From a virus, in the IMG/VR virus record IMGVR_UViG_3300012925_000001: 64,000 bases of DNA. The stretch is one strand, 5' to 3'. The translations under genes and the position numbers were made by a program. The notes beneath the pieces were generated by a model. It was not told the DNA's origin. It saw only the letters and a list, made by a program, of their open reading frames with translations, and ran no database searches. This document shows positions 832 to 31,009 of the stretch, piece after piece; positions within the stretch are counted from its first letter, which is position 1, and each line of letters opens with the position of its first letter.

Positions 832-833
832 TT

Positions 834-14019: not shown

Positions 14020-14021
14020 TT

Positions 14022-14978: not shown

Positions 14979-15223
14979 AACTCTACTTCGTAATCCCCAA
15001 GCACGCTGAAGTTACGCCTGCTAACTTCTCGCCCGCTCTCTCCTGCATAGACCTCGACGGCAACCGCACCCTGGACGCCGTCAAAGCATTCACCAAGCTC
15101 AAGTACGCCAAAGCATTCGTGCGCAGCCAATACCTCTACAACAAGCAAGCACGCGAGACGAAGCTGGAGATCGTAACCACGCTTTGCATCCCAGTAGGCC
15201 GCCCAAGAAAGGCAAGCAAGTAA
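14975..15223 (+). CDS. hypothetical protein
   Basis: ATGA overlap. Confidence 0.65.
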   Translation: MKLYFVIPKHAEVTPANFSPALSCIDLDGNRTLDAVKAFTKLKYAKAFVRSQYLYNKQARETKLEIVTTLCIPVGRPRKASK

Positions 15224-15931: not shown

Positions 15932-16155
15932 CCCTTGCTGACTACCTATTTATCGCTTGGCTCATCAACTTCGTTGTAGTCCTCATCATGATCCGTCTGG
16001 CCTACGCGCGCACGAACTTCTACGATCGGTTCTCAGTCCAGACCGACAACTGGATCAATACATTCCTGATCACGTTCATCCTGCAGACTGCATTCATGGT
16101 CACCTACAACTTCGCCCGTCTAATCCATCTCTATCATCTCCACGGAAGGTCCTAG
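15928..16155 (+). CDS. small membrane protein (two to three TM helices)
   Basis: ATGA overlap; strongly hydrophobic 75 aa. Confidence 0.65.
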   Translation: MTLADYLFIAWLINFVVVLIMIRLAYARTNFYDRFSVQTDNWINTFLITFILQTAFMVTYNFARLIHLYHLHGRS

Positions 16156-16162
16156 CCTAGCC

Positions 16163-16858: not shown

Positions 16859-17055
16859 CCGAACTCCTTTCCTATACACGCTTCTGGTTCGCCAAGTTCC
16901 TCGTTGAACTCTGCCTGACTATTGGTATGCTGGCTACAATCTTATTCGTGGTCTGTGTGCACAACTTCATCGAACGTCACAGAAAGGATCGTGCTGACCT
17001 GACAGAGCCTGACTCGGATCTCGGCTGGGACGACGACAAATGGTGGCATAACTGA
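16855..17055 (+). CDS. small membrane protein
   Basis: ATGA overlap; FLVELCLTIGMLATILFVVCV helix. Confidence 0.6.
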   Translation: MTELLSYTRFWFAKFLVELCLTIGMLATILFVVCVHNFIERHRKDRADLTEPDSDLGWDDDKWWHN

Positions 17056-17282
17056 TGACTATCTATGTTCGACGAATGTCTGTGCAGGACATGTACAACA
17101 CCGTCAACCGGCAGCTTACTCTCGTCCCGGCTTGCGACGAGACAGACTTCGCTAAAACCATCCTAGGCGTGCTGTGCGAGATGGCGTCACGGTACATCCA
17201 AGAGTCTAACGACGAAGGCGAGCAGCAGCTCATGCACAAGCTACAGGCCCTGCCGCCTGTTGACCCGAAGGATATGAACTGA
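17055..17282 (+). CDS. hypothetical protein
   Basis: TGATG overlap. Confidence 0.6.
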   Translation: MTIYVRRMSVQDMYNTVNRQLTLVPACDETDFAKTILGVLCEMASRYIQESNDEGEQQLMHKLQALPPVDPKDMN

Positions 17283-17449
17283 TGCCCGAGCCTAAGATTA
17301 GAGACTATCCCGTGATCCCGTCCGAGGCTGTTCCGCCCGGCGAGATCTGGTTCGCCACACCTGAAGGCATCACGCACAAAATCATTGGTGTCGACTCAAC
17401 CACGCCCACTGTAGATGACTTACTAGAGACCTCCGATGACTCCGACTGA
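17282..17449 (+). CDS. possible 55-aa ORF (below ORF-track cutoff)
   Basis: TGATG overlap at 17282; hand-translated MPEPKIRDYPVIPSEAVPPGEIWFATPEG...; fills an otherwise empty 150 nt. Confidence 0.4.
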   Translation: MPEPKIRDYPVIPSEAVPPGEIWFATPEGITHKIIGVDSTTPTVDDLLETSDDSD

Positions 17450-17822
17450 AGCTCGTAGCATAGTCCGCCGCGAGCTCCCCAACGCTCAACATAACTCGAA
17501 CGACTTCAACTATCACTGGATCGAGCCTGGCCCGCCAATCTCGGAAGCCTTCCTTGAAGACGAAGCCGAAACCGAAATCTGGATGAACCTAGCCCGTGAC
17601 GGTCACGACCGCACAGACGAGGAACACTTGGCATCCTTCAACATGCTAATGAAGATCCAACAGGACGCCGAAGACCGCGCCTGGATCAACGCAGCCGAGC
17701 GTATCCTCACCCAAGCCAAGCTCAAGCGCACTAAATTCTGGAATCGATTCTTCGATGTAGTAATCGGTCTAGGATTCATATTGTTCATCACCGACTTCCT
17801 CATCCGACACGGAGTTATCTAG
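17436..17822 (+). CDS. hypothetical protein with C-terminal TM helix
   Basis: 128 aa; FFDVVIGLGFILFITDFLI near C-terminus. Confidence 0.65.
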   Translation: MTPTEARSIVRRELPNAQHNSNDFNYHWIEPGPPISEAFLEDEAETEIWMNLARDGHDRTDEEHLASFNMLMKIQQDAEDRAWINAAERILTQAKLKRTKFWNRFFDVVIGLGFILFITDFLIRHGVI

Positions 17823-17824
17823 CC

Positions 17825-18265
17825 ATGCGAACAACTCACACCACAACAATCCTGACCTGCGACCGCTGCCGTTGCGTCACATCAGACCTGCGCCGGATCT
17901 ATCGGCTCGACACCGAAAACGGTAGCATGTCCTATTCCACTTACTGTCAGCATGAACTACTATCCGAGCTATGCTTGACCTGCACGGCCCAGCTCAACCA
18001 CTTCCTCAATCCTAGCGAGACTGCGCCTGTAGACCCGCGCCTGACAGAAGCTTCTCCCGCTGAACCTGCTCCAGCATCTCCTGCTCCACATCCTCAACCC
18101 TCAGCTGAGGAAGCAACGCAGCCGGAAGCAACCTCACCGCCAGCCCAGTCCCCTGTGCCGACCACTCAACTAGACCAATCCCCGACAGAGTGGCTACGGT
18201 CTTGGCTAAGGTCCCCCGAGACCAACCGAACCGTCGCTCCACCAGATCAGGACGAAGAAGTTTAG
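17825..18265 (+). CDS. Cys-rich (CDRC...CLTC) protein with Pro/Ser/Ala-rich tail
   Basis: ATG 2 nt after upstream stop; the last ~85 codons are low-complexity and overlap a minus-strand ORF (see findings). Confidence 0.55.
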   Translation: MRTTHTTTILTCDRCRCVTSDLRRIYRLDTENGSMSYSTYCQHELLSELCLTCTAQLNHFLNPSETAPVDPRLTEASPAEPAPASPAPHPQPSAEEATQPEATSPPAQSPVPTTQLDQSPTEWLRSWLRSPETNRTVAPPDQDEEV

Positions 18266-18368
18266 TCCGGTAAAGGTTATAGCTGCTAATTAGCTGTAGC
18301 GCCTGCTGACACTGCTGTGGCTTCAACCCGGCGATCTGCTGCAACGCATAGCTACTGTACATCGTCAT
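18012..18368 (-). CDS. candidate antisense winged-helix DNA-binding protein
   Basis: ORF covers the otherwise non-coding gap 18266-18385; LVERRFGWSRGTLAKTVATLSGIGLVEWSAQGTGLAVRLL reads as HTH + wing; start uncertain (ATG 18368/18362, GTG 18404). Confidence 0.35.
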   Translation of the reverse strand: MTMYSSYALQQIAGLKPQQCQQALQLISSYNLYRTKLLRPDLVERRFGWSRGTLAKTVATLSGIGLVEWSAQGTGLAVRLLPAALLPQLRVEDVEQEMLEQVQREKLLSGAGLQAQSR

Positions 18369-18385
18369 GAAAGGATGATACTCGA

Positions 18386-18634
18386 ATGGCCCGCACCTGC
18401 GCACTTATCCTCACCTGCCCGACCTGCGACGCGCAGCCTTACCAACGCTGTTGGCAGACTGACCCCAGGTCGTTCTTCGGCCAGAAGATACTCGCTACGG
18501 GTAACTATCATCCAGCACGCCTGGCTGCAGCGCGTAGGCAGGAACGTAACCAGAAACTACAGCCGCAGCCGCAGCCGCAACCCCTCCCCGACCCTGACTA
18601 CATCGACATTGCCGACCAGTGGGGAGACTACTGA
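18386..18634 (+). CDS. small zinc-finger protein (CPTCDAQPYQRC ... HPAR)
   Basis: CxxCxAxPxxxC motif also present in 39919..40128; Gln/Pro repeat tail. Confidence 0.65.
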   Translation: MARTCALILTCPTCDAQPYQRCWQTDPRSFFGQKILATGNYHPARLAAARRQERNQKLQPQPQPQPLPDPDYIDIADQWGDY

Positions 18635-18652
18635 TTATTTTCCTTCAGAGGG

Positions 18653-18680
18653 TTGACAACGGTTGAGCATGGTGTACACT
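18653..18680 (+). promoter_or_regulatory. sigma70-type promoter candidate P2 (RNA-repair operon, near-leaderless)
   Basis: TTGACA 18653-18658, 16 nt, TACACT 18675-18680; ATG 18688 lies only 7 nt after the -10. Confidence 0.55.
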
Positions 18681-18687
18681 ATCCTAC

Positions 18688-19167
18688 ATGGACAACGATA
18701 ACTTCGACCGACCCGCCGCCGCCAACGCCGCTCTCAAAACTCTAACTGATGCTGAAGAGAGCGTGCACGCTCGCCTGACCGACCTTACCGCTCGCCGCAA
18801 AACCGTCGAAGACGCTGTGACCATGCTGCAGCTCTGGTACGCGGACCCGACCAACATCGACATCCTGGCTGAGTTCCAACCCGGCGACCCAATCTTCTCC
18901 GAGATCGCATCGAACTCCTGGAAGCTGGAGCCTGCAGGCAAGGTCACCAGCATCTACCTCGAACCGGCATACCCACGTTTCTACGTTCGCTCAGTCGAGC
19001 CTACAATCTGCTACGCTTTCGACCGCGCACCTGGCTATCGATACGGCGACAACACCCACTCCTCGAACGGTTGCTCCAGGTACTTCGGCGTGGACGAGTA
19101 CAACAGCAAGATTCGGTCCGAGATTGATTCACTGCAACGCAAGCTCAACGTCAACGTGAAAGGTTAG
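18688..19167 (+). CDS. hypothetical protein (first gene of RNA-repair operon)
   Basis: 159 aa; no SD, start at predicted transcription start. Confidence 0.7.
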   Translation: MDNDNFDRPAAANAALKTLTDAEESVHARLTDLTARRKTVEDAVTMLQLWYADPTNIDILAEFQPGDPIFSEIASNSWKLEPAGKVTSIYLEPAYPRFYVRSVEPTICYAFDRAPGYRYGDNTHSSNGCSRYFGVDEYNSKIRSEIDSLQRKLNVNVKG

Positions 19168-19177
19168 CCACACTCCA

Positions 19178-20065
19178 ATGCCCAAGCTCACTCTAATGCG
19201 CGGTCTGCCTGCGTCCGGCAAGACCACCAAAGCACGCGAACTCGTCAAGGCCAGCGGCTCGGCCGCGCGCATCAACCGTGACGACCTGCGCGCCATGCTG
19301 TTCAACTCTTCCTGGTCCGGCAAGCGCGAAGAAATCATCATCGCAGCGGAGAAAGCTCTCGTCGCTGTCCTGGCCAAGCACAACCACAACGCCATCATCG
19401 ACGATACCAACCTCTCGACGAAGCACGTAGACATGTGGCGGAACGTGGCCAAGGAAACCTACGGCGAGAACAGTTTCGTCATAGAATCCTTACTCGACGT
19501 GCCTCGCTACGAATGTGTTCGTCGTGATCACGCTCGCCAATTCGATCACGATAGCAAGTTCGTGGGCCGTGCTGTGATTGACCGGATGGCCTTAGCCAAC
19601 GACCTGATCGACTGGAACAACCGGCCGATAATCCTGGTCGACATAGATGGCACTCTCGCAGACGGAACCCACCGCCAGCACTATGTCACCCGTCCCGAAG
19701 GCGAGAAGAAAGACTGGGACTCCTACTACGAAGCTCTCAGCTACGACGAGCCAATCTCGTTCGTAATGCGATGGGTACGAAAGCTCGCTGAAGACCACAC
19801 GATCTGCCTAGTCTCAGGCCGTCCTGACACCTACCAGCGTGAAACCATGAACTGGCTGATCAAATGGGCTGTGCCTTACGACTACCTGTTCATGCGGAGT
19901 GGGGGAGATCATCGCCCAGACACCGAAGTCAAGGCGAAGATCCTGAAGCATATCCCTCGGGACCTGCTGCAGTTTGTAATCGATGACCGTCCACAAGTGA
20001 TACGTATGTGGAGGGAAAACGGAGTGAAAGTCTACCCAGTTCGAGGAGCATGTGATGAGTTCTAG
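19178..20065 (+). CDS. polynucleotide 5'-kinase / 3'-phosphatase (T4 Pnkp-like)
   Basis: N-terminal P-loop MRGLPASGKT; C-terminal HAD motif I LVDIDGTLAD and later VIDDR; domain order as in T4 Pnkp. Confidence 0.88.
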   Translation: MPKLTLMRGLPASGKTTKARELVKASGSAARINRDDLRAMLFNSSWSGKREEIIIAAEKALVAVLAKHNHNAIIDDTNLSTKHVDMWRNVAKETYGENSFVIESLLDVPRYECVRRDHARQFDHDSKFVGRAVIDRMALANDLIDWNNRPIILVDIDGTLADGTHRQHYVTRPEGEKKDWDSYYEALSYDEPISFVMRWVRKLAEDHTICLVSGRPDTYQRETMNWLIKWAVPYDYLFMRSGGDHRPDTEVKAKILKHIPRDLLQFVIDDRPQVIRMWRENGVKVYPVRGACDEF

Positions 20066-21945: not shown

Positions 21946-23022
21946 ATGAACCACAACGACTTCAGCCACCTTAACCAGATCGTCTACATGGACTTCGGCA
22001 GCCATCTCTATGGCACCATGACTCCGACGTCTGACTTCGACTTCAAAGGGATACATATCCCCACAGCCCAGGAAATCCTGCTGCAGCGCGTCCAGGAATC
22101 TGTCAGCAACCGGCAGTCGAAGCAGCCTGGCGAAAAGAACTTGCCCGGCCAGTCCGAATGCGAGTCCTACGCACTGTCTAAATTCCTCAAGATGGCAGCC
22201 GAAGGCCAGACTGTCGCGCTGGACATGCTGTTCGCACCGGTAGAGCACTGGGGCGTCTCCAGCCGTCTCTGGGAGGTCATTGTCAATAACCGTGAGAAGT
22301 TGCTGACGTCGCGCACAGCTGCGTTCCTCGGCTATTGCCGTCGTCAAGTCAACAAGTATGGCATCAAAGGCTCGCGCGTCAAAGCTGCTGAAGACGCCAT
22401 GCTGCTCTTCTATGCACTATGCAAAGCCGATCACTACAACGACCCTATCAGTGAAATCGATCATTGGCTACGCGGCAAGGGCACCTCAGAGCACTCCAGC
22501 GTCATCGAGCATCCGATCGGCCCAACTGGAGAGCTTGGATTGTTCTATGAAGTTTGTGGGCGCAAAATCGCATACAACACCAGAACCCAGGAAGCCTATA
22601 AGATCTGCGAGCGCATCTACAACGAATACGGCCACCGCGCCCACCTCGCCAAAGACAATTCAGGCGTCGACTGGAAGGCAGTTTCGCACGCCGTCCGCGT
22701 CGGCTACCAAGCGATCGAGCTGCTAACAGATCACCACATAACCTTTCCGATCCCACAAGCCGCTCAAGTCACTCGCATCAAGCTCGGCGAGGTTCCATTC
22801 GACACCTGCGCTCAGCTAATCGAGGAGCTTATGCTTGCGGTCGAGCACGCTGCAGTCGGCAGCACTCTGCCGGAGGAACCCGACCACCAGTTCATCCAGG
22901 ACCTCATCATCAGCTCGAACATGCTTACCGTGCTCAACGCTGGTGAACCTGACCTGGCTCACGCGATCTACAGCGACGACTGGCCGACAGTCGTGCAGAC
23001 CGAGTACGACGAGAGCTATTAG
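21946..23022 (+). CDS. nucleotidyltransferase, PF10127/RlaP-like (RNA-ligase-associated)
   Basis: N-terminal FGSHLYGTMTPTSDFDFKGIH matches the GSxxYGxxxxxSDxDxxG pol-beta-type NTase signature of that family as I recall it; ATG 21946 two nt after upstream stop. Confidence 0.7.
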   Translation: MNHNDFSHLNQIVYMDFGSHLYGTMTPTSDFDFKGIHIPTAQEILLQRVQESVSNRQSKQPGEKNLPGQSECESYALSKFLKMAAEGQTVALDMLFAPVEHWGVSSRLWEVIVNNREKLLTSRTAAFLGYCRRQVNKYGIKGSRVKAAEDAMLLFYALCKADHYNDPISEIDHWLRGKGTSEHSSVIEHPIGPTGELGLFYEVCGRKIAYNTRTQEAYKICERIYNEYGHRAHLAKDNSGVDWKAVSHAVRVGYQAIELLTDHHITFPIPQAAQVTRIKLGEVPFDTCAQLIEELMLAVEHAAVGSTLPEEPDHQFIQDLIISSNMLTVLNAGEPDLAHAIYSDDWPTVVQTEYDESY

Positions 23023-23048
23023 ACTACTAGTTAGCTCGCGAACACGAC

Positions 23049-23081
23049 AAAGCCCAGCAGGATTGGAAGCTGCTGGGCTTT
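23049..23081. terminator. bidirectional stem-loop terminator between convergent units
   Basis: AAAGCCCAGCAG 23049-23060 / CTGCTGGGCTTT 23070-23081, 9-nt loop; A-run before and T-run after. Confidence 0.65.
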
Positions 23082-23105
23082 GTCTGGTACAAGGTGCTAC
23101 TGCTA

Positions 23106-23681
23106 CTAACTAGTCTGCGTAATCACAAACGCAGCCACAACACCACCAGCAGCCAGGAACGGTACCGGCGTGCTGCCCGTCGGCGTAGTTCCGTCCGCCA
23201 GCACTGCGCTCACCGTCAGTGTAAACGTAGTACCCGTTGGCGCAGTTGGCAGCGTAGTGATACTCGCCGACAGACCATCCGCAGCAACTACAACCGGAGC
23301 ATTTACTGGGTCACTTGAAACAGCCGTAGGGATAATTCCTGCAGGCAGAGCAATCGCAGTACCGTCGGCCTCAACTGGAGTGAACAGAAAAGTTCCAGTT
23401 GCGCCGGCTACAATACCAATAACAGGGGCTTGAATAGGCATGGTCGTATCTCCTTCAGGGTTAGGGATCTGGGTGATCACGAAATGATGGACCTCGTTGG
23501 TCGGTGGCGTAGCAACTAATTCCTGATAGATCTTGGTCAGCACCACCAGCGATTTAGCCTGGAGCTCCAACGATCTCTCCAACAGCTTCTCAATCTCACG
23601 TAGCTGACGATCGGCAACGAAGATCCACATACTGAATAAGACGAGGATAGCAACCGGTACGATGCACGCTAGAGTGAACAT
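23106..23681 (-). CDS. membrane-anchored protein with Thr/Ala/Pro-rich beta-type ectodomain
   Basis: N-terminal TM LACIVPVAILVLFSMWIFV, coiled-coil, then repetitive T/A/P/V-rich C-terminal half; 191 aa. Confidence 0.65.
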   Translation of the reverse strand: MFTLACIVPVAILVLFSMWIFVADRQLREIEKLLERSLELQAKSLVVLTKIYQELVATPPTNEVHHFVITQIPNPEGDTTMPIQAPVIGIVAGATGTFLFTPVEADGTAIALPAGIIPTAVSSDPVNAPVVVAADGLSASITTLPTAPTGTTFTLTVSAVLADGTTPTGSTPVPFLAAGGVVAAFVITQTS

Positions 23682-23714
23682 TTAGAGAATAATCCTCATG
23701 GAAGGCTCTCCAAC

Positions 23715-24077
23715 TCACATGATGATGGCATAGGCTATGGGGTCTAGAATCTCATCGTAAGGTTCAACTACACGCTGTACGTATGTGCAAATAGGGCAGC
23801 ATATCAATGCGCAGGACAACTGCGTAACGTAATCAAATTCCTTGTAGATCTTCCAGAATTTGACTGAGTGCAGGCAACCCGGCGGCCACCAGGGCTGATA
23901 CTCGTTGATGACTTCACCAATAACCGGATACTCGACCCAAGGCTGAGCGTTTTGCTGACTTGGGAACACTTGAGTCCCGACTCCCCCAGGCTGGGTGAAG
24001 AACGGTAGACCGCTGACCAATCCACCCTGATACATAGCTCCGACCGTCCAGCGATTTGTACCAACGATAGGCGGCAT
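23715..24077 (-). CDS. hypothetical Trp/Cys-rich protein
   Basis: 120 aa; CALICCPIC cluster; no family recognised. Confidence 0.6.
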   Translation of the reverse strand: MPPIVGTNRWTVGAMYQGGLVSGLPFFTQPGGVGTQVFPSQQNAQPWVEYPVIGEVINEYQPWWPPGCLHSVKFWKIYKEFDYVTQLSCALICCPICTYVQRVVEPYDEILDPIAYAIIM

Positions 24078-24104
24078 CAGCAGCTCCTAGCTCTCAGCCT
24101 AAGC

Positions 24105-24335
24105 CTAGCACTGATCGCCATACTTACGAAGTAATTTCCAGGCCAGTGCAGGGCCGCGATACAACTTCCCTGACGGACTCTGCCAGACCGTTCTTCCATG
24201 CTCCCCAGGCTGCTTCCAGCCGGCAGCTCGCAGCTCAGCCCGCGCCGCCACCGAATCAAACTCAGGCCAAGGCTCATGCACGGACCTCGCCGCCACATCC
24301 TTGATCGCCACCGGCCCATGTTTCATCTTAGTCAT
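24105..24335 (-). CDS. hypothetical small protein (GWK...GR...WQSPSGK...R motif)
   Basis: In-frame ATG 24335, 13 nt downstream of RHH gene stop; 76 aa. Confidence 0.55.
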   Translation of the reverse strand: MTKMKHGPVAIKDVAARSVHEPWPEFDSVAARAELRAAGWKQPGEHGRTVWQSPSGKLYRGPALAWKLLRKYGDQC

Positions 24336-24348
24336 TGGTATGGCTGGC

Positions 24349-24552
24349 CTAGATCCCGATATAACTACGCAGAGCATCATTCGCCACCTGCTGCAGCCAC
24401 TCCTCCACGCCGATCCCCTGTGCCTGCGCCTGGTCCTCGACGGCCATTCTGATATCTAGGTCCAGGACAAAGCTCACGCGCCCCGTATGGTCGATCCTGG
24501 CGCGATCCTGCTTGGCTATAGTTGTCGTGCTGGAATGAACTGAAACTGGCAT
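24349..24552 (-). CDS. ribbon-helix-helix (CopG/Arc-like) DNA-binding protein
   Basis: GGGAGG 8 nt before ATG 24552; RVSFVLDLDIRMAVEDQAQAQGIGVEEWLQQVANDAL fits beta-strand/helix/helix. Confidence 0.7.
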   Translation of the reverse strand: MPVSVHSSTTTIAKQDRARIDHTGRVSFVLDLDIRMAVEDQAQAQGIGVEEWLQQVANDALRSYIGI

Positions 24553-24578
24553 AAGAAAAGCCTCCCTCAACTAGCTAC

Positions 24579-24607
24579 ACGGTATCACGTAAAATAAATG
24601 TTGACAA
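24579..24607 (-). promoter_or_regulatory. possible leftward promoter of the RHH cassette
   Basis: Minus strand TTGTCA (24607-24602), 17 nt, TACCGT (24584-24579); its -35 overlaps the -35 of P3. Confidence 0.35.
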
Positions 24608-24628
24608 GCGTTGCCTATGGTGTAACAC
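24601..24628 (+). promoter_or_regulatory. sigma70-type promoter candidate P3
   Basis: TTGACA 24601-24606, 16 nt, TAACAC 24623-24628 (or 17 nt + AACACT). Confidence 0.5.
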
Positions 24629-24698
24629 TGTTGCCACTTCAACAATACCGCAACTTGTATAGTCCAGTTCAACAGATCGTCAAAAGGAGCCTTACCTT

Positions 24699-25133
24699 AT
24701 GCTTGTAGCCCACCACACCACTGCTGCCGACCACGCCCAAGGCGAATCCTTCAATCGCCCTCTCGAATCGATCATTGTCAGCGACGGCCAGCAAATCAAC
24801 AGCCTGAGCCGGGAACTCGACAACAGCATCGACACCTACAACCCGGATTCCAACGACCGCTATGGCCGCTCCATGCGTGTCCGCAACCTCCAGGTAGCTT
24901 CCGCCCCTCCCCCGCAGCAGTCCACCCCTGAATCCCGTCTGTGGTCCTCCATCCTCCTCCAGATCTACAAAGAAGTGTCCCTCGGCGGCATCAACTCGAA
25001 AGCCTACCGCGAGTCCCTGGTCAACCTCGACGCCATGAACTGGGTGATGGACTGCCTGGGGTACCTAGATAGTGACGCTTTTGGAAAACTGCTCGATCGG
25101 GCCGTTCTGGAGTTTGAGCTCGCCAAAGGCTGA
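24699..25133 (+). CDS. hypothetical protein
   Basis: AAAGGAG 8 nt before ATG 24699; 144 aa; monocistronic between P3 and the iteron region. Confidence 0.7.
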   Translation: MLVAHHTTAADHAQGESFNRPLESIIVSDGQQINSLSRELDNSIDTYNPDSNDRYGRSMRVRNLQVASAPPPQQSTPESRLWSSILLQIYKEVSLGGINSKAYRESLVNLDAMNWVMDCLGYLDSDAFGKLLDRAVLEFELAKG

Positions 25134-25242
25134 ATTTGGTTGCCTATAGTTGCTCACGAAAGCGCAACCTGTTGGTTGCATATAGGCCTTCTAGGCGCAT
25201 TTCAACTCATCCATGGGGTAAAAAACTAAGTTGTTGATTTTA

Positions 25243-25269
25243 GGGTAGTTAGGTGCAGCCTAACTACCC
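25243..25269. other. perfect 11-bp inverted repeat (hairpin)
   Basis: GGGTAGTTAGG 25243-25253, loop TGCAG, CCTAACTACCC 25259-25269. Confidence 0.8.
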
Positions 25270-25294
25270 CCCTACCCTCTGCCATCCTTTTAAT

Positions 25295-25514
25295 GGCGGT
25301 AATCGACCTAACCCCATGATTCCAAACGACTTTAATTCCGCCAACCTCTCTAACGGTAATTGGCGGGCATGTCGGTAATAGGCGTTTCTTTCCCATATTT
25401 ATTACCGCCATTACCGCCAATTACCGCCAATGCCATTTGGCGGTAATAACTATATTTGTTTTGTGTGTTTTAGGGGATTACCGCCATTACCGCCATCACT
25501 ATATATATATATAC
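25295..25514. repeat. iteron array (ATTACCGCC, both orientations) plus (TA)7 tract; candidate replication origin
   Basis: ATTACCGCC at 25401, 25410, 25420, 25477, 25486; GGCGGTAAT at 25295, 25439; degenerate copies at 25334-25344, 25354-25366, 25373-25384; TATATATATATATA 25500-25513. Confidence 0.75.
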
Positions 25515-25696
25515 TTATAACTGAACCTGTTTTTGGCTCGGTTTTCGGTGACGTCGGGAGCCCTCAAATCTGGACTCTTGACTGATGGTTGCACTATAGC
25601 ACGTGTGTGGAGAATTGCAATAGAGTGGGAAGAATTATTTTAGGTGGAACCTTGAGGGTGGCTCGAACTGCCTTCCCCTTTAGCTAACGCGCCGGC

Positions 25697-26782
25697 TTAG
25701 TTCATAAAAGGCTTGCGGTACTTCCGGGTGCGATTGTTGCCGATCTTCTCCAACATGCCTAGCTCGTCTGAGGCCCTGGAGGCTATCCAGCGCTCCAGTG
25801 TCCTGAAAACGATAGATAGCTCGTCTGCCCATGCTGCGAACTCGTCCTTGCCCCATTCTGTGCCATGCTCGGCCTTGTCCAGCTTGTCGTCGAGCATGGC
25901 AAACGTAGGCGAATCTGAATTCTGCGTGCTGGGGTCCATAATCACCAGGCGATGCTGCTCGTCAAAGTCGACATATAGCAACCTGCTAATAGATTTGTTT
26001 TTGGATTCGATGCGGACTTTGCGATATCGGGGGCGTTTCTCTTCAGGTAAGTCTAGCCGAGTATGTTCGATCCCGATCAGGGTACTGGCTTCCTGGGACC
26101 AGGCTACGGACCCGAAAACCCGATCGGCCAGTACCGGATATGACTCGCCCTTGCGCATCTTGGCCATGCCAACAGTTCCCAGAATGGTCACATGATGTTC
26201 AATACAGAACTTTTGCAGGGTTTGATAGTAGAAATCGCGCACGGCCCGCGAATCGTTGATCTTGCCGCCGCCTTCCATCATGTACTGCAGGCCTTCGATG
26301 AACAGGAAGTAGACTGGCTGTCGAGCTTGGTGGCAAAGTTCGCCATAAAGCCTTTGCAGCGTTTCCAGAGGGGTCTCACTGGAGCCTGGGTCCCAATCTC
26401 TGACCGGGAACTTGATAGGGTTGCTTAGCTCCTCCATCTCCATGTGGGCTATGCGGTCGAACAGGATGTCCCAGTTGCCAGAGCAGACGATAGCCCCGCA
26501 TTGGTGAGGTTCATCGCCGTCTTTGACTGCGTAGTCTAGGAAGGTACCGCTGGCAATGTAGGTTTCGAGGCAGCTCAATGCCAGGGCAGTCTTGCCAGAA
26601 GTACTGCTACCTATCATCAGATTGACGGAGCGGAGCGGAAATAGCCCTGGCACGCACGGCTTAGGAGCACGGTGCACTAGCTCAGGGCTGAGCTGATCGC
26701 GTGGGACTTCACGAGTATCGATTTCAAACATGTCTAAATCGAGTTCAGCAGGCGGAGGGGCAGGGGAGCGACGTTTAGCCAT
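25697..26782 (-). CDS. RecA-fold P-loop ATPase, RepA/DnaB-like (AAA_25-type) replication helicase candidate
   Basis: Walker A GSSTSGKTALAL, Walker B-like VYFLFIEGL; 361 aa; its 3' end faces the iteron array. Confidence 0.7.
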   Translation of the reverse strand: MAKRRSPAPPPAELDLDMFEIDTREVPRDQLSPELVHRAPKPCVPGLFPLRSVNLMIGSSTSGKTALALSCLETYIASGTFLDYAVKDGDEPHQCGAIVCSGNWDILFDRIAHMEMEELSNPIKFPVRDWDPGSSETPLETLQRLYGELCHQARQPVYFLFIEGLQYMMEGGGKINDSRAVRDFYYQTLQKFCIEHHVTILGTVGMAKMRKGESYPVLADRVFGSVAWSQEASTLIGIEHTRLDLPEEKRPRYRKVRIESKNKSISRLLYVDFDEQHRLVIMDPSTQNSDSPTFAMLDDKLDKAEHGTEWGKDEFAAWADELSIVFRTLERWIASRASDELGMLEKIGNNRTRKYRKPFMN

Positions 26783-27061
26783 GGGAAGCCTTTCAGCGGT
26801 AGCGGTACGGGTCAGGGAGGGTCGGTGAGGGTGTGGTGGAGCGAGCTGGAGCGCTACTGAGCGACACAGGCGTAGAGTCGCAAATAGGCCTGAAAAAACC
26901 TATTGCGCTGACGTCTCGATTGGATCTAGTATGAGTGTCTACCAAGTTGGCTGCCCGCTTGATCTGGTAACTATGCTGTGTAGTGTATCAGATATTTGTG
27001 GTGTTGGGTAGCCCTAAGTGATAGAAAGTTTAGCGCGGTTTCGCACGGTGGCAGATGGTGG

Positions 27062-27090
27062 TTGACAGTTGCCTGGAGTGTGTGTAGAGT
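27062..27090 (+). promoter_or_regulatory. sigma70-type promoter candidate P4
   Basis: TTGACA 27062-27067, 17 nt, TAGAGT 27085-27090; a second TTGACA at 27099-27104. Confidence 0.5.
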
Positions 27091-27128
27091 AAGTTTTGTT
27101 GACAGCGGAAGGGAGTCCGCGAGCAAGC

Positions 27129-29111
27129 ATGCCGATGAATTTTATCCCTGAGGTTTCTGACGATCTATCCGGATCTGCAACGCAAGTGATTCCCGAGAAG
27201 CGCAGGATTTATGTCGATCGCACGCGGCACAAAGATCGGCAGCGATGCAAGCGGCTTAGATGGTTGGGTTATCACGCCGGCGCAACGTCGAATGGCATCC
27301 AGCCCAAGCGCAAGTCGATCCACTTAGTCATCGGCTCAGCAGTGCATGTAGGCATGGAGCGCCTCCTCTGGGGCATGCAGGATTACATCAATCAGCACAA
27401 CCTAACAGTCGATGAAGGGTTCGCAGCGATCTCTGGGATCAACACTCAGAAGGTCTGTGAGTTTATTGAAGACCAAGCTGTCGAAGCTGCCTTACGCGAC
27501 CTTGTGGCCATGACTGAGTTTGGCGTCGAGCTGGACGACCAGGAGAAGTTCGCAGCAGAAAAGGCTAAGACTGCACTGACGACTGGGTCGCTGAACTCAG
27601 CAACGGCTGCCGCTGGTGGCGACTCGATGATCGAGATCACGTTTGAGGATATGCCGCTGCCCACGCCGCTGCCTGTTCCCGAGCAAGCTATTAAGTTTGC
27701 TCAGACCGTGCAAGCTAGCTTGGATATGCTGTCAGGAGCCAACGCCCTGTCTACCGTTGACTGGGGAGCGCCGATCTATCCAGCATCCAAGAACCTGGTC
27801 GAGATCATGGAAGGCAATGACCCGGCGATGATTCTTAGCGATCCAGCACTCGCCGCTATCGAGATCAACGTCCCCAGCGAGCAAGCAAACGCCATGAAAA
27901 CCGCCGGACTCGACAACTACCTGCTGGAAGAACTGGCCGCCCAGATCGAAGCCCTAGTCCGTGCCTATGCGCGTCGTCGCTGGAAGCCACTCCTCGATCA
28001 GTTCGAGATCCTCGAAGTCGAGCGTGAAGGCGAATGGCAGTTAGGCAAGATCGAGTACGATCGCTGGGTTATCGAGCCTGCAATCACATCCGCACCGGGA
28101 GCTGTAGACCCTTTCTATAGCCAGACTCTGAAGAGGTATGTTGACCAATACGAAATCTGGTTCATGTCCCGGCATGATGCGCTGTTGAAGGAACGTCAGA
28201 CAGGATACCTATACCTGCAGTCATATAAAACTACCGGCTCATGGGACCGGCGCAAGGAAGCTGACGCACAAATAGACATGCAAGGCCTCTCCGAAGCTGT
28301 CGATGTCGAGAAGCGATTCTCGGAAGCCTGGCATATCATCCAACGCAGTGGCGGGCCAATCACAAGCATTGACAACCTGGCCGATCAGATGGGCGATGGT
28401 CAGCAGCTAAATCGTCTAGTGAACCTGCGCACGGCTAATTGGCTAGCCACGCTCCCAGAGCCACCACGCATCCTGGGTGTCCGCTATGAGTACATGAACA
28501 AGGGCGCACGTCGTCAAGACAAGAACGATACTGAGATGCCGAATCGATACGTGGCCGATACGCCGCTGATCCGGGCCTATAAAACCGACGGCATCACCGC
28601 CGATGATCGCAAGTGGGGTTGGTCTTACGAAGTCTGCGATGCCTACGGCAAGTCCAAACGTCTCGACTACCGCACCTGGAAGAAGGCACCGGTATGGCGG
28701 TTCATGACGATCAAGCAGTGGATTGATTTGCTCGATGCGGACAAAGTCCAGCCTGAGTCCTATGACAAGGAAGGTAACCGGCTAGACGCGCTTGCTGACC
28801 AGTTCATGACACCGATTCATGTCTACCGCAACGAAGATGACATGCGGGACATGTTGGAGCAGCTCCAAGCGGAAGAAGAAGAGAATGCGCGAGACGTGCT
28901 GGCGGTTTACGCTGTCCGTTCCGACCCGGGCAAGATGCGCTCCGAGCTCAACAAGCGCTTCTCGCAGAACCGCGCCAGCTGTTCGTACCCCGGCAAATGC
29001 CAGAACCATGAGATCTGCTATGGCAGCTCCGAGATCCGTCGTGACCCTGAAGGCAGCGGCCTGTATCAGATCCGTGTAGCCAACCATCCGCAGGAGAATT
29101 ATCAACCGTAG
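27129..29111 (+). CDS. PD-(D/E)XK (RecB/AddB/Cas4-like) nuclease with four-Cys cluster
   Basis: N-terminal RQRCKRLRW, GSAVHVGME, ...HDALL...YLYLQSYKTTG (AddB-like DYKTG block), C-terminal CSYPGKCQNHEIC; start ATG 27129 (track TTG 27096). Confidence 0.65.
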   Translation: MPMNFIPEVSDDLSGSATQVIPEKRRIYVDRTRHKDRQRCKRLRWLGYHAGATSNGIQPKRKSIHLVIGSAVHVGMERLLWGMQDYINQHNLTVDEGFAAISGINTQKVCEFIEDQAVEAALRDLVAMTEFGVELDDQEKFAAEKAKTALTTGSLNSATAAAGGDSMIEITFEDMPLPTPLPVPEQAIKFAQTVQASLDMLSGANALSTVDWGAPIYPASKNLVEIMEGNDPAMILSDPALAAIEINVPSEQANAMKTAGLDNYLLEELAAQIEALVRAYARRRWKPLLDQFEILEVEREGEWQLGKIEYDRWVIEPAITSAPGAVDPFYSQTLKRYVDQYEIWFMSRHDALLKERQTGYLYLQSYKTTGSWDRRKEADAQIDMQGLSEAVDVEKRFSEAWHIIQRSGGPITSIDNLADQMGDGQQLNRLVNLRTANWLATLPEPPRILGVRYEYMNKGARRQDKNDTEMPNRYVADTPLIRAYKTDGITADDRKWGWSYEVCDAYGKSKRLDYRTWKKAPVWRFMTIKQWIDLLDADKVQPESYDKEGNRLDALADQFMTPIHVYRNEDDMRDMLEQLQAEEEENARDVLAVYAVRSDPGKMRSELNKRFSQNRASCSYPGKCQNHEICYGSSEIRRDPEGSGLYQIRVANHPQENYQP

Positions 29112-29140
29112 TTGACAAAGGTTTCGCGTAGTGGTATTGT
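29112..29140 (+). promoter_or_regulatory. sigma70-type promoter candidate P5
   Basis: TTGACA 29112-29117 directly after the nuclease stop, 17 nt, TATTGT 29135-29140. Confidence 0.55.
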
Positions 29141-29235
29141 AGCTCCTGAGAGCAAGACAACAGAGACAACAGATAAGTAAATGATCCTCTTCAGCACCCT
29201 CTTCTCCATTACCACACATTTCAGAAGGAGCACCA

Positions 29236-29472
29236 ATGCCCAGCGAATACCGCAACCCGAAGCTCAGCAAGAGCGACCCAATGGTGGTCGAGCATATCAA
29301 GATTCCGAAGTCAGTTCTAGCCTCATTGAACATCTCAGCCGCAAGCCGTCAACGTCATCGCTCGTTTGTAGTGCGCGAGATCCTGGAAACATGGAAGGTA
29401 CAGTTCGATAAAGACATGGCTGCGAATGCAGTAGCAGCAGCTAAGTCGAATAAGAAAACTTCAGCGGCTTAG
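29236..29472 (+). CDS. ribbon-helix-helix-like small protein
   Basis: AAGGAG before ATG; VEHIKIPKSVLASLNISAASRQRHRSFVVREILETW fits strand/helix/helix. Confidence 0.55.
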   Translation: MPSEYRNPKLSKSDPMVVEHIKIPKSVLASLNISAASRQRHRSFVVREILETWKVQFDKDMAANAVAAAKSNKKTSAA

Positions 29473-29495
29473 TTAGACCGCAACGTAGCACAGCT

Positions 29496-29520
29496 CACAA
29501 CACAACACAACACAACACAA
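29496..29520. repeat. (CACAA)5 microsatellite
   Basis: Five perfect tandem CACAA units 36 nt upstream of ATG 29556. Confidence 0.9.
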
Positions 29521-29555
29521 TAACGCTTACCTAATCGCAGAAGGAGCATTACTTC

Positions 29556-30593
29556 ATGGCACGTTCGGGAGTCATCTATGGAGCCTCAGGCACATTCAAA
29601 TCGACCGCAGGCAAGCACTTCTCCAGGTACATCTACAAGAAAACTGGCAAAGCCACGCTACTATTCAGTCTGGATGGCGGCGGCTGGGGACCAATGGAGC
29701 CTGAGATTCGTGGTGGAATCATCCTTCCGTACCGCGGCAACACGCAAGTCCCTCTGCCAGTGCTGCGCAAGATAAGCCAGGGCTACTGGCCTGAGGATTC
29801 CGGCGAGACTGAAATCAGCAAAACCAACCTGCGCTCGATTGATTGGGCACGGTTCGGAGGCTTGTTCGTGGAAGGTCTGTCGTCTATCAGCCAAGCCTTG
29901 ATGCGGCATCTAGCCGACCAGCAGATCAAGACTGGCGAGGAAGCTACTAGTCCGTTCTCGCAGCGTGTGGTCGTCGAAGGCCAAGTAGTCACTGAAACGT
30001 TTGCCGGCAACAGCAAAGCGCACTATGGCTTTGTCCAAAACCAGCTCTATTCCCTAGTCACCAACTTCACCTCTCTTCCCCTTGAATACGTTTTGTTCTC
30101 TGCACTTGAATCACGTACTGAAGAAGATGATCGCTCGACGATCTACGGGCCACAGGTCGCAGGCAAAAAGGCTACCGCACTCGTTCCGTCCTGGGTCGGC
30201 GACTGTCTCCACTCTGAAGCTTACCCAGTTGAGAAGTTCATCCAGGTCCCTGATCCCAAAGACGCGACGAAGAAAATAGAAACCAGAGTCGTCGAGACTC
30301 TAGTCCGCACGTACTTCGTCAAGCATCCAGACCCTAGCACTGGAATCATGTTCCCGGCGAAACCTCGAATCGACTCTGAGAAAGTCGGCGAACTGATGAA
30401 GCTATTTCCAGGCGGATACTATGAGCCGTCGCCGTCCCATGGCCTCGACACCTATCTCGAAGCTATTGACTCATTCAACGAGTCCTCAGGAGATGACGCT
30501 GGTGACTGGCGTGCTGAAGTCGATAAAAAGTTTGGTCGTGTGACTGTGGCTGGACCGATTGCCACAGCTTCACTTCCTAAAGCCACCAAGTAA
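29556..30593 (+). CDS. RecA-fold ATPase (Sak4/AAA_24-like) recombination protein candidate
   Basis: N-terminal GVIYGASGTFKST (degenerate Walker A), GGLFVEGLSS (Walker B-like); position between nuclease and SSB-like gene. Confidence 0.55.
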   Translation: MARSGVIYGASGTFKSTAGKHFSRYIYKKTGKATLLFSLDGGGWGPMEPEIRGGIILPYRGNTQVPLPVLRKISQGYWPEDSGETEISKTNLRSIDWARFGGLFVEGLSSISQALMRHLADQQIKTGEEATSPFSQRVVVEGQVVTETFAGNSKAHYGFVQNQLYSLVTNFTSLPLEYVLFSALESRTEEDDRSTIYGPQVAGKKATALVPSWVGDCLHSEAYPVEKFIQVPDPKDATKKIETRVVETLVRTYFVKHPDPSTGIMFPAKPRIDSEKVGELMKLFPGGYYEPSPSHGLDTYLEAIDSFNESSGDDAGDWRAEVDKKFGRVTVAGPIATASLPKATK

Positions 30594-30631
30594 GACAGAG
30601 ACAGAGAACCTGCTGCTTGCTGTGCTGCCTT

Positions 30632-30645
30632 GGTCAACGTTGACC
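30632..30645. promoter_or_regulatory. perfect 14-bp palindrome GGTCAACGTTGACC (operator candidate)
   Basis: 40 nt upstream of RHH gene 30685; overlaps first of two ACCTGAAG direct repeats (30643, 30662). Confidence 0.5.
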
Positions 30646-30684
30646 TGAAGTAGAACCATCAACCTGAAGAAAGGACCGAACCTA

Positions 30685-30924
30685 ATGACAACCGAGAATG
30701 AAGTCGTAGGAGTTGGAGCACCGGCACCGACAAGCATTACCGCAACACCAGCTTCGACAGCCTCAGTAACTACATCGCTGCCAAAGCAGAACACTACCGT
30801 TTCGATCACACTGGACGCTGATGTTTATGCATACTACGCTGCAAAGGCTAAGGAAGACGATCGTAGCCTGGCCAAGTATTTGCAGCGCGAGCTGAAGGCT
30901 AAGTTTGAAGTAGCTGAACTCTAA
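30685..30924 (+). CDS. ribbon-helix-helix (CopG-like) protein
   Basis: C-terminal TVSITLDADVYAYYAAKAKEDDRSLAKYLQRELKAKF is a textbook strand/helix/helix pattern. Confidence 0.65.
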   Translation: MTTENEVVGVGAPAPTSITATPASTASVTTSLPKQNTTVSITLDADVYAYYAAKAKEDDRSLAKYLQRELKAKFEVAEL

Positions 30925-31009
30925 GCCAGTCAGCAGCTCAGACTAGGCAACCCAACCCTCACCGCTCAGCCTGTCTGAGCCATAACAGCACCGAAAGGAA
31001 GCACTAACA

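What the first reader, a model, noticed from the sequence alone, without database searches (positions are those of the whole stretch)
25134..25696. 560-bp non-coding region packed with ATTACCGCC iterons and a (TA)7 tract: candidate origin or centromere
At least nine copies of the 9-mer ATTACCGCC / GGCGGTAAT lie within 200 bp. The copies are:
- three head-to-tail at 25401-25428
- two at 25477-25494
- inverted copies at 25295 and 25439
- degenerate copies at 25334-25384

They are followed immediately by TATATATATATATA (25500-25513), a plausible unwinding element. A perfect 11-bp hairpin (25243-25269) precedes them.

The region abuts the 3' end of the RepA/DnaB-like ATPase gene. The only ORF here (25226..25420, minus strand) is built from the repeats themselves. 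Iteron plus AT-tract architecture is the classic signature of theta-type plasmid or phage origins. It could also be a partition site or a repressor-titrating array.
Basis: seen in the sequence. Interest (0 to 1): 0.62.

Follow-up and report, generated by a model that had tools for sequence, protein, structure and literature searches.

The report
Phage replication origin with matched initiator-helicase
The repeat-packed non-coding stretch is most likely the replication origin of an uncultured phage, recognised by the DNA-binding tail of the DnaB/RepA-like ATPase encoded right next to it; the layout is a classic one, but the helicase type is unusual.

Summary
There are 7 exact ATTACCGCC copies (0.43 expected), all within 25295-25494, plus 3-4 degenerate copies, a (TA)7 tract and an 11-bp hairpin.

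The region lies between convergent 3' ends. In ten related contigs (ATPase identity 96% down to 31%, plus one far relative) a repeat array follows the ATPase gene. Nine closer relatives share one layout:
- a promoter-like element;
- a TA-rich tract;
- two direct repeats, an A-rich spacer, then inverted and tandem repeats.

The repeat sequence is lineage-specific.

Against the closest relative, the flanks are 96-97% identical. All ten repeats are changed in register (GGCGGTAAT to GTCGG[T/A]G). Twelve of the 13 ATPase substitutions fall in residues 296-360, a predicted winged helix. The 144-aa neighbour is 100% identical, so it cannot set the specificity.

The TA tract is the least stable 30-bp duplex in the 64-kb window. 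Cumulative GC skew reaches its minimum here.

Best reading, at about 0.75: an iteron origin bound by a self-loading initiator-helicase. It works like SaPI Rep or P4 alpha, but is built on a RecA-fold (DnaB/RepA-like) core. No binding, unwinding or initiation has been shown. I rate it a new variant of a known kind.

The parts
25697..26782 (-). Gene for a 361-aa RecA-fold ATPase (Walker A GSSTSGKT, DnaB-like 'IEGLQYM' Walker B). It is the proposed initiator-helicase.
   Evidence: Pfam AAA_25 scores 22.8 bits, below the cutoff of 27; relatives pass it. The AF2 model has pLDDT 78. Foldseek top hits are KaiC C1 and DnaB (2q6t, 4nmn) at E about 1e-10.
25715..25909 (-). Codons 292-356 of the ATPase. 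They form a C-terminal winged helix (three helices plus a beta-hairpin) and are the proposed iteron-recognition domain.
   Evidence: DSSP on the AF2 models. TM 0.6-0.68 to GntR-type winged-helix domains. Twelve of the 13 substitutions against the 96%-identical relative lie in residues 296-360.
25593..25620 (-). Promoter-like element: TTGCAA, 16 nt, TG-extended TATAGT. It points toward the TA tract and iterons ('P_ori').
   Evidence: Equivalent elements lie 126-162 nt upstream of the first iteron in L128, L129, L135, L131 and L132. In L131 and L132 an extra gene is inserted after the ATPase, and the element stays with the array rather than with the ATPase stop.
25526..25539 (-). Conserved A-rich box, GAGCCAAAAACAGG on the minus strand, between the promoter-like element and the TA tract.
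   Evidence: Variants of GCCAAAAAC recur at the same place in L128, L130, L132, L131, L133 and L129. Its function is unknown.
25495..25525 (.). TA-rich tract including (TA)7. It is the candidate DNA-unwinding element.
   Evidence: It is the least stable 30-bp duplex in the whole 64-kb window (dG -28.9 against a mean of -44.0, sd 3.2). The equivalent tract has z = 2.1-3.8 in all nine relatives.
25477..25494 (-). Iteron pair: two contiguous ATGGCGGTA units, read on the minus strand.
   Evidence: A pair sits at this position next to the TA tract in all close relatives.
25448..25476 (.). A/T-rich spacer between the iteron pair and the inverted iteron.
   Evidence: A spacer of similar length (about 30-50 nt), A-rich and ending in AGTTA, is present in all relatives.
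25401..25447 (.). Core iteron block: one inverted copy (25439-25447) facing three tandem copies (25401-25428). Together they form an 11-bp palindrome with a 6-nt gap.
   Evidence: (I24).
25295..25379 (.). Distal iterons: degenerate copies at 25370-25379, 25360-25370 and 25334-25344, and an exact inverted copy at 25295-25303.
   Evidence: Each is replaced in register by the GTCGG-type repeat in L128.
25243..25269 (.). Perfect 11-bp stem with a 5-nt loop, distal to the iterons. It could be the terminator of the P_ori transcript or a single-strand initiation hairpin.
   Evidence: I21. Hairpins sit at the same relative position in L131 (10 bp), L129 and L134 (7 bp) and L130 (6 bp), read.
25227..25239 (-). 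AATCAACAACTTA, the only match to the IHF consensus WATCAANNNNTTR in the window.
   Evidence: The same 13-mer occurs twice in L132, and near-copies occur in L129, L131 and L133.
25291..26000 (.). Divergent cassette relative to the closest relative L128. It contains the iterons, the leader and the coding region for the ATPase C-terminal domain.
   Evidence: DNA identity is 65% (25291-25500), 79% (25501-25696) and 82% (25697-25940), against 96-97% in both flanks.

Best explanation
The region is the replication origin of this phage, which is uncultured, has an estimated genome of about 91-100 kb and encodes PolA.

Proposed mechanism: the adjacent 361-aa RecA-fold (DnaB/RepA-like, Pfam AAA_25) ATPase recognises the 10-11 WTGGCGGTAAT iterons through its C-terminal winged helix. 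It assembles on the array, probably as ring oligomers on the oppositely oriented repeat groups. It melts the neighbouring TA-rich tract (25495-25525) and loads itself as the replicative helicase. It would therefore combine initiator and helicase in one protein, as SaPI Rep and P4 alpha do.

A conserved promoter-like element (25593-25620, minus strand) fires into the TA tract. It may help opening, or it may provide an RNA primer.

Shown here:
- the repeats, their conserved layout and their lineage-specific sequence;
- their co-inheritance with the ATPase C-terminal domain;
- the fold of the protein;
- the extreme duplex instability of the TA tract;
- the skew switch at this locus.

Inferred, not shown: binding, oligomerisation, melting, helicase activity and the role of transcription.
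For: 1. The repeats are real and unique to this spot.

2. Position and layout are conserved. In nine relatives with ATPase identity from 96% to 31%, the array follows the ATPase gene in the same order: TA-rich tract, two direct repeats, an A-rich spacer, then inverted and tandem repeats. A far family member (L140) has GTGAGCATAA repeats in both orientations, with AT-rich spacers, downstream of its ATPase.

3. The repeat sequence is lineage-specific: GGCGGTAAT, GTCGG[T/A]G, GGCGGGAAT, GGCGGAAAT and TGGCAAYA.

4. Window against L128:
- the flanks are 96-97% identical, while the block 25291-25940 is 65-82% identical;
- all ten repeats are changed in register;
- 12 of 13 ATPase substitutions lie in residues 296-360; by my arithmetic the binomial p is about 1.5e-8;
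- the 144-aa, Sak4-like and 239-aa neighbours are 100% identical.

5. Fold: a RecA-type core closest to KaiC and DnaB, with Walker A, Walker B and DnaB-like H4 residues invariant. The C-terminus is a winged helix. Distant family members hit the helicase parts of PHROG primase/helicase and DnaB-like helicase families, and one C-terminus hits a 'replication initiation protein' PHROG.

6. The TA tract is the least stable 30-mer in 64 kb, and the equivalent tract is low-stability in all relatives.

7. Cumulative GC skew is at its minimum at 25-26 kb. Plus-strand genes to the left and right of the locus differ in skew: -0.097 against +0.026, Mann-Whitney p = 0.002.

8. The arrangement matches that described for SaPI self-loading helicases: a C-terminal winged helix, iterons immediately downstream of rep, an AT-rich region, and oppositely pointing iterons (PMC9371898).
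Against: - There is no experimental or read-depth evidence of initiation.
- The window protein's own AAA_25 score is below Pfam's cutoff.
- Its top structural neighbours include KaiC, which is not a helicase.
- The co-variation rests mainly on one close pair. The cassette looks like a recombinational swap, so linkage alone could carry the C-terminal domain and the repeats together.
- The recognition-helix motif RTxERW is conserved across lineages whose repeats differ, so no residue-to-base code is visible.
- No DnaA box is present. No primase was recognised with three Pfam models in the relative G001 or among the window ORFs scanned. How synthesis is primed is therefore open.
- The skew pattern is asymmetric: the maximum is at about 7 kb and the minimum at about 25 kb. 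It could reflect mosaic gene classes rather than replication.
Confidence: 0.75

Rival explanations
1. The array is a regulatory operator or titration array. The ATPase, or another phage DNA-binding protein, binds the repeats to control the promoter-like element at 25593-25620 and its non-coding transcript, or to titrate a regulator. No initiation takes place here.
For: A conserved promoter-like element points into the array. Repeats in both orientations and an 11-bp palindrome resemble operators. Three RHH genes lie within 6 kb.
Against: The element sits between convergent 3' ends, with no conserved ORF downstream of the promoter. The partner that co-varies is a ring-ATPase-type protein, not a repressor. 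This rival does not explain the extreme TA-tract instability or the skew minimum. Autoregulation by iterons is also normal at true origins, so this reading is not exclusive.
Confidence: 0.1
2. The array is a partition (centromere-like) site. It is bound by an adaptor protein and segregated by a partition NTPase during a plasmid-like prophage state.
For: Clustered direct and inverted short repeats resemble type Ib/II centromeres bound by RHH proteins. RHH genes are nearby.
Against: None of the about 40 ORFs scanned matched any ParA or ParB Pfam family, or any other partition family. The protein that changes together with the repeats is a RecA-fold ATPase with a winged helix, not a ParA, ParM or TubZ type. 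The RHH next to the region has a single substitution in its available part (T16A), although every repeat differs. In L131 and L132 the array travels with a promoter and the TA tract, not with any partition gene.
Confidence: 0.05
3. The array is a packaging (pac/cos) recognition site or genome terminus. The repeats are terminase small-subunit binding sites.
For: The only IMG/VR relative (G001, 65 kb) starts about 175 bp from the region, inside the ATPase gene. Repeat arrays occur at pac/cos sites.
Against: The window and ten other contigs run straight through the region. No terminase gene is adjacent; the structural genes lie 17 kb or more away. The G001 break falls inside the hypervariable cassette, where assemblies of mixed strains tend to break. 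The specificity co-varies with the ATPase.
Confidence: 0.03

Closest known systems
SaPI Rep self-loading initiator-helicases and their ori (Staphylococcus aureus pathogenicity islands)
   Same: One protein has an ATPase motor plus a C-terminal winged helix that reads short iterons. There are 6-12 iterons immediately downstream of the rep ORF, an AT-rich region, and iterons pointing in opposite directions. Rep C-terminal domains and iterons are matched to each other (PMC9371898; preprint 10.64898/2026.10.17.759575).
   Different: The SaPI Rep motor is an AAA+/SF3-type helicase. Here the motor is a RecA fold closest to DnaB and KaiC. SaPIs have an adjacent or fused primase; none was recognised here. 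Here the strongest AT-rich tract flanks the array and a weaker one lies inside it, and a promoter-like element is part of the module.
IncQ plasmid RSF1010 oriV with RepA, RepB' and RepC
   Same: Its helicase RepA is, from my own knowledge, of the RecA-fold hexameric type that Pfam AAA_25 covers. Its oriV combines iterons, an AT-rich segment and hairpin-forming ssi sites (ssiA and ssiB are mentioned in the abstract of PMC8567376). The window likewise has iterons, a TA tract and a distal perfect hairpin.
   Different: In RSF1010 a separate protein (RepC) binds the iterons and a dedicated primase (RepB') uses the hairpins. Here the iteron-reading domain appears fused to the helicase, and no primase was found.
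Satellite phage P4 alpha protein with ori/crr, and lambdoid O protein with ori-lambda
   Same: From established knowledge: P4 alpha carries a helicase plus a C-terminal ori-binding domain that reads short repeats. In lambdoid phages the iterons and the iteron-binding domain of O are exchanged together as a specificity module, and transcription near the ori activates it.
   Different: P4 alpha is a primase plus an SF3 helicase and needs a second repeat cluster (crr). No second cluster exists in this window. Lambda O has no motor and recruits host DnaB through P. The lambda iterons lie inside the O gene, not downstream of it.
T4 oriF/oriG-type origins (promoter plus downstream unwinding element, R-loop priming)
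   Same: From established knowledge, these origins have a promoter followed within about 100 nt by a very unstable AT-rich element. That matches 25593-25620 followed by 25495-25525.
   Different: The T4 origins have no iterons and no sequence-specific initiator. R-loop priming here is only a conjecture.

Membership tests
Iteron-type replication origin | A cluster of three or more copies of one short repeat, roughly in helical phase | tested here: met
   There are 7 exact and 3-4 degenerate copies in 200 bp. Tandem spacing is 9-10 bp, and 9-13 bp in relatives.
Iteron-type replication origin | An adjacent A+T-rich DNA-unwinding element | tested here: met
   25495-25525 is the least stable 30-mer of the window, z about +4.7. 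The feature is conserved in relatives. Actual melting was not tested.
Iteron-type replication origin | A cognate initiator encoded nearby whose specificity matches the iterons | tested here: inconclusive
   Co-variation and co-inheritance of the ATPase C-terminal domain with the repeats were shown. Binding itself cannot be tested with these tools.
Iteron-type replication origin | DnaA boxes (common in this family, but not universal) | tested here: not met
   TTWTNCACA has 0 matches in the whole window, against 2.7 expected.
Iteron-type replication origin | Replication initiates at the site | not testable with these tools
   There is only indirect evidence: the cumulative GC-skew minimum at 25-26 kb and the left/right skew difference, p = 0.002.
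Self-loading initiator-helicases of the SaPI Rep / P4 alpha kind | AAA+ (SF3-type) helicase motor | tested here: not met
   The motor is a RecA fold. The best PDB matches are KaiC C1 and DnaB, and the Pfam family is AAA_25. The protein is therefore not a member of that family; it only works like one.
Self-loading initiator-helicases of the SaPI Rep / P4 alpha kind | A C-terminal winged-helix domain | tested here: met
   Helices at 292-303, 312-321 and 326-337 plus a beta-hairpin. The isolated domain has pLDDT 82. TM 0.6-0.68 to winged-helix DNA-binding domains.
Self-loading initiator-helicases of the SaPI Rep / P4 alpha kind | Iterons directly downstream of the rep ORF, with an AT-rich region and oppositely oriented repeats | tested here: met
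   The array starts about 200 nt after the stop codon, the repeat orientations are mixed, and there is an AT-rich spacer and flank.
SF4 / DnaB-RepA-like hexameric helicases (Pfam AAA_25) | RecA-type core with Walker A, Walker B (hhhD/E-x-LQ) and a DnaB-like H4 motif | tested here: met
   GSSTSGKT, FIEGLQYM and LADRVFGSxxWxQEA are invariant or nearly invariant in the alignment. The structure matches DnaB 2q6t and 4nmn. The motif assignment comes from my own knowledge of DnaB.
SF4 / DnaB-RepA-like hexameric helicases (Pfam AAA_25) | Score above the Pfam gathering threshold | tested here: inconclusive
   The window protein scores 22.8 bits against a cutoff of 27. Relatives P0012, P0065 and P0120 score 41-74 bits.
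SF4 / DnaB-RepA-like hexameric helicases (Pfam AAA_25) | Hexamer formation and 5'-3' unwinding | not testable with these tools
   This needs biochemistry.
ParABS-type or RHH-type plasmid centromere | An adjacent partition NTPase and a centromere-binding adaptor that co-varies with the repeats | tested here: not met
   No ParA or ParB Pfam hit among the about 40 ORFs scanned. The neighbouring RHH and the 144-aa protein are unchanged or nearly so where the repeats differ. Not every small ORF was scanned.

The most novel reading that the evidence does not exclude
The ATPase may represent a widespread family: 831 cluster representatives at E <= 1e-3, typically 300-400 aa. These would be bacterial-type RecA-fold (SF4-like) replicative helicases that carry their own origin-recognition winged helix. 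They would self-load at an iteron origin placed just downstream of their gene, needing no separate initiator and no loader. In this phage lineage, priming would come from a dedicated origin promoter (R-loop) rather than from a primase. Self-loading initiator-helicases have so far been characterised for AAA+ (SF3 and MCM-like) motors. This would be the RecA-fold counterpart.
Probability: 0.4. Interest if true: 0.7.

Novelty: new variant of a known kind. Interest (0 to 1): 0.52.

Why it matters
It gives a testable origin and initiator for a phage lineage that has no cultured relatives. There was no DNA or ATPase match among 50,697 deposited phage genomes.

It also provides natural specificity-swap pairs. 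The window and L128 differ in all the repeats and in 12 residues of a 65-residue domain. That makes it straightforward to work out how the winged helix reads its iteron.

If the ATPase really unwinds DNA, it would show that DnaB/RepA-type helicases can also be built as self-loading initiators. That question is under active study for the AAA+ Rep helicases (PMC9371898; preprint 10.64898/2026.10.17.759575).

In practice, the initiator-plus-ori cassette of about 1.6 kb (25.2-26.8 kb) is a candidate minimal replicon.

Tried and rejected
- blastn of 23001-31000 against INPHARED phages found no match. tblastn of the ATPase also found none. PolA gave only remote hits of 25% identity or less, so no cultured relative is available to compare.
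- A scan of IMG/VR for the 18-mer ATTACCGCCATTACCGCC returned 120 or more unrelated contigs, mostly chance or coding repeats. It was uninformative and wasted a scan.
- Profile scans of IMG/VR and of GTDB genomes found only the one known relative, or nothing. No host or prophage copy was identified.
- There was no Rfam match at E <= 1 in 23-28 kb and no tRNA or tmRNA. A structured-RNA reading has no support.
- The 144-aa protein as iteron binder is rejected: it is 144/144 identical in L128, where every repeat differs, and it is absent from the called genes beside the array in L130.
- An RHH protein as binder is unlikely. The RHH next to the region has 1 substitution in the 48 aa available. The other two differ only in their C-terminal tails or at one further position.
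- The 64-aa ORF 25226..25420 as a gene is rejected. It is made of the repeats, which change between relatives, and nothing was called there in the relatives L128, L129 and L130.
- The search for a residue-to-base recognition code across ten C-terminal domains gave no clear rule. RTxERW is conserved even where the repeats differ.

Full report
**1. The observation**

- ATTACCGCC occurs exactly 7 times in the 64-kb window, against 0.43 expected. None of 100 shuffles reached 7. All copies lie in 25295-25494.
- With one mismatch allowed, only one more copy falls in the region. The other 1-mismatch hits are scattered at background level.
- Reading the flanks shows the true unit is WTGGCGGTAAT, spaced 9-10 bp apart when tandem.
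- Three further degenerate copies bring the total to 10-11 sites in 200 bp, in both orientations.
- The (TA)7 tract (25500-25513) and the perfect 11-bp hairpin (25243-25269) are present.
- No tRNA and no Rfam family matches here.

**2. Context**

The window is a piece of a phage-like genome. It encodes:
- a PolA fused to a UDG-like domain, a PIF1-like helicase and an HNH endonuclease;
- an RNA-repair set (Pnkp, RNA ligase, RlaP-like nucleotidyltransferase);
- large minus-strand genes, one with collagen repeats.

Nothing similar exists among 50,697 deposited phage genomes.

The finding region lies between two convergent 3' ends. One is the 144-aa ORF 24699-25133 (plus strand). The other is the 361-aa ATPase gene 25697-26782 (minus strand). 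It is therefore not the upstream control region of either gene.

**3. Relatives**

A protein search with the ATPase found nine relatives at 96-40% identity. Eight genomic contexts were fetched, plus a 31%-identical relative from a JGI metagenome.

In every one of the nine, a non-coding stretch follows the ATPase gene and carries an array of short repeats. The order of elements is the same throughout:
- a TA-rich tract;
- two direct repeats;
- an A-rich spacer of about 30-50 nt ending in AGTTA;
- one to three inverted repeats facing two or three direct ones;
- further mixed copies (map, alignment).

The repeat sequence differs by lineage:

| Contig | Repeat |
|---|---|
| window | GGCGGTAAT |
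| L128 | GTCGG[T/A]G |
| L129, L132 | GGCGGGAAT |
| L130, L134 | GGCGG[G/T][A/G]A |
| L135 | GGCGGAAAT (11-bp period) |
| L131 | GGCGGAA |
| L133, L138 | TGGCAAYA |

In L131 and L132 an extra gene has been inserted between the ATPase and the array. The array, its TA tract and a promoter-like element about 130 nt upstream stay together as a block.

A very distant family member, P0100 in L140, has five GTGAGCATAA repeats in both orientations. They have AT-rich spacers and lie downstream of its ATPase and one small gene.

It was tested and is not met.

**4. Who reads the repeats**

The closest relative, L128, is the informative one. Aligned to the window, both flanks are 96-97% identical. A block from about 25291 to 25940 drops to 65-82%.

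Inside that block every one of the ten repeats is replaced in register by the GTCGG-type repeat. The 3' part of the ATPase gene carries many changes there, synonymous ones included.

At the protein level:
- the ATPases differ at 13 positions, and 12 of these lie in residues 296-360;
- by my arithmetic the binomial p is about 1.5e-8;
- the 144-aa neighbour, the Sak4-like protein and a 239-aa protein are 100% identical;
- the RHH next to the region has one change in the 48 residues available.

The pattern is that of a swapped specificity cassette made of the repeats plus the C-terminal domain of the ATPase. This rules out the 144-aa protein as the specificity determinant. It makes the ATPase C-terminus the best candidate.

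The caveat is that this is one close pair. Physical linkage within a recombined block would also carry the two parts together.

**5. What the ATPase is**

- The AF2 model (pLDDT 78) has a RecA-type core. Its best PDB matches are KaiC C1 domains and DnaB helicases (2q6t, 4nmn) at E about 1e-10.
- Walker A (GSSTSGKT), a DnaB-like Walker B (FIEGLQYM, or IDGLQLM in relatives) and an H4-like LADRVFGS..W.QEA motif are invariant or nearly so. The motif names come from my own knowledge.
- The window protein is just under the Pfam AAA_25 threshold. Relatives pass it.
- Residues 292-356 fold as three helices plus a beta-hairpin. The isolated domain (pLDDT 82) superposes on GntR-type and other winged helices with TM 0.6-0.68.
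- A profile search gave a marginal HTH hit at E = 0.083.
- The family is large: 831 representatives at E <= 1e-3, mostly 300-400 aa and covering the C-terminal domain.
- Distant members hit the helicase portions of PHROG 'DNA primase/helicase' and 'DnaB-like replicative helicase' families. One C-terminus hits a 'replication initiation protein' PHROG.

**6. Features expected of an origin**

- The segment 25495-25525 is the least stable 30-bp duplex in the whole window (dG -28.9 against -44.0 +/- 3.2).
- The equivalent tract is low-stability in all nine relatives (z = 2.1-3.8). It ranks first in two of them and second in two more.
- Cumulative GC skew has its minimum at 25-26 kb.
- Plus-strand genes to the left and right of the locus differ in skew despite the same orientation: -0.097 against +0.026, p = 0.002. 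At third codon positions p = 0.02. This is suggestive only, because the overall skew pattern is asymmetric.
- No DnaA box occurs anywhere in the window.
- The only IHF-consensus match in the window lies at 25227-25239, beside the hairpin.
- A sigma-70-like element (TTGCAA, 16 nt, TG-extended TATAGT) at 25593-25620 points into the TA tract. It has counterparts in most relatives.
- No primase was recognised with three Pfam models in the relative G001 or among the window ORFs scanned. G001 covers the window from 25.9 kb onward plus a further 27 kb.

**7. Mechanism proposed**

The winged helices of the ATPase bind the iterons. Ring oligomers assemble on the oppositely oriented repeat groups. The flanking TA tract melts, and the same protein is loaded as the replicative helicase.

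Transcription from the origin promoter may assist opening or supply a primer for PolA. The distal hairpin may terminate that transcript or act as a single-strand initiation site.

Only the sequence architecture, its conservation, the module swap, the folds and the stability and skew profiles are shown. The biochemical steps are inferred.

**8. Comparison with what is known**

- The closest functional match is the SaPI replicon. Its Rep helicases carry a C-terminal winged helix that reads 6-12 iterons immediately downstream of rep. There is an AT-rich region and oppositely pointing iterons, and the helicases load themselves (PMC9371898; preprint).
- The motor there is AAA+/SF3-type. Here it is a RecA fold. 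This protein is therefore not a member of that family, but it would work like one.
- RSF1010 has a related helicase type together with iterons, an AT-rich segment and hairpins. However, it splits iteron binding, unwinding and priming among three proteins.
- Lambdoid O/ori modules give the precedent for exchanging iterons and the reading domain together.
- In two literature searches I found no description of a RecA-fold helicase with a fused iteron-reading domain. That is absence of evidence only.

**9. Rivals**

- An operator or titration array is possible, and it is compatible with an origin.
- A centromere lacks any partition NTPase or co-varying adaptor.
- A pac site or genome end has one point in its favour: one relative's contig ends inside the variable cassette. 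Eleven contigs cross the region, and variable cassettes often break assemblies.

**10. Verdict**

It is a classic kind of element in a new lineage, with an unusual motor type and an unusually clean natural specificity swap.

Noticed in passing
window 25139-25149, 25175-25185, 25588-25599: GTTGC-N1-3-TATAG occurs three times in the window, against 0.3 expected, and all three copies are inside the finding region. Read on the minus strand each is a -10-like hexamer (TATAGG, TATATG, TATAGT) followed by GCAAC. The third is the -10 of the promoter-like element at 25593-25620. Similar GTTGCC/GCAAC boxes precede the 144-aa gene at 24610-24660.
   Followed up: partly
window 25227-25239 (minus strand): AATCAACAACTTA is the only match to the IHF consensus WATCAANNNNTTR in the 64 kb. 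The identical 13-mer occurs twice in L132, and near-copies occur in L129, L131 and L133 within their arrays. It may be a bending-protein site or a second conserved ori element.
   Followed up: partly
whole window: There is no DnaA-box-like TTWTNCACA anywhere in the 64 kb, against 2.7 expected.
   Followed up: no
L001/L122 (IMG/VR contig IMGVR_UViG_3300012926_000004, 65,155 bp): The only IMG/VR relative starts inside the ATPase gene at about window 25872, within the hypervariable cassette. From there it runs beyond the window's right end by about 27 kb. It shows no match to window 1-20000. The full genome is therefore about 91 kb or more. The break may reflect co-occurring strains with different ori cassettes.
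   Followed up: partly
L131 5415-5684; L132 5258-5734: In two relatives a gene has been inserted between the ATPase and the ori block. In L131 it encodes 89 aa. In L132 it encodes a 158-aa protein with a weak PadR hit.
   Followed up: no
L131 about 6440-6500; L132 about 6255-6345; L135 about 4495-4580: Three or so copies of a CTAGGC / GCCTAGG motif lie just beyond the distal end of the iteron array in several relatives. The window has TAGGC-containing boxes at 25145-25200. This could be the site for a second DNA-binding protein.
   Followed up: no
L130 7204-7500; L134 3786-4090: These two relatives carry an extra stretch of about 130 nt of GC-rich sequence between the ATPase stop and the TA tract. 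In L134 a 55-aa Ala/Arg-rich ORF was called there.
   Followed up: no
window 27096-29111 against L128 3681-5654: The 671-aa protein has no Pfam or PHROG match. It differs from its L128 counterpart (657 aa) by several indels and many substitutions in its N-terminal third, although the surrounding genes are identical.
   Followed up: no
L140 1836-2050: In a distant, AT-rich family member, five GTGAGCATAA repeats in both orientations lie within an 82-nt imperfect inverted repeat downstream of the ATPase and an 80-aa gene. The link between the ATPase and a repeat array may therefore hold across the family.
   Followed up: partly
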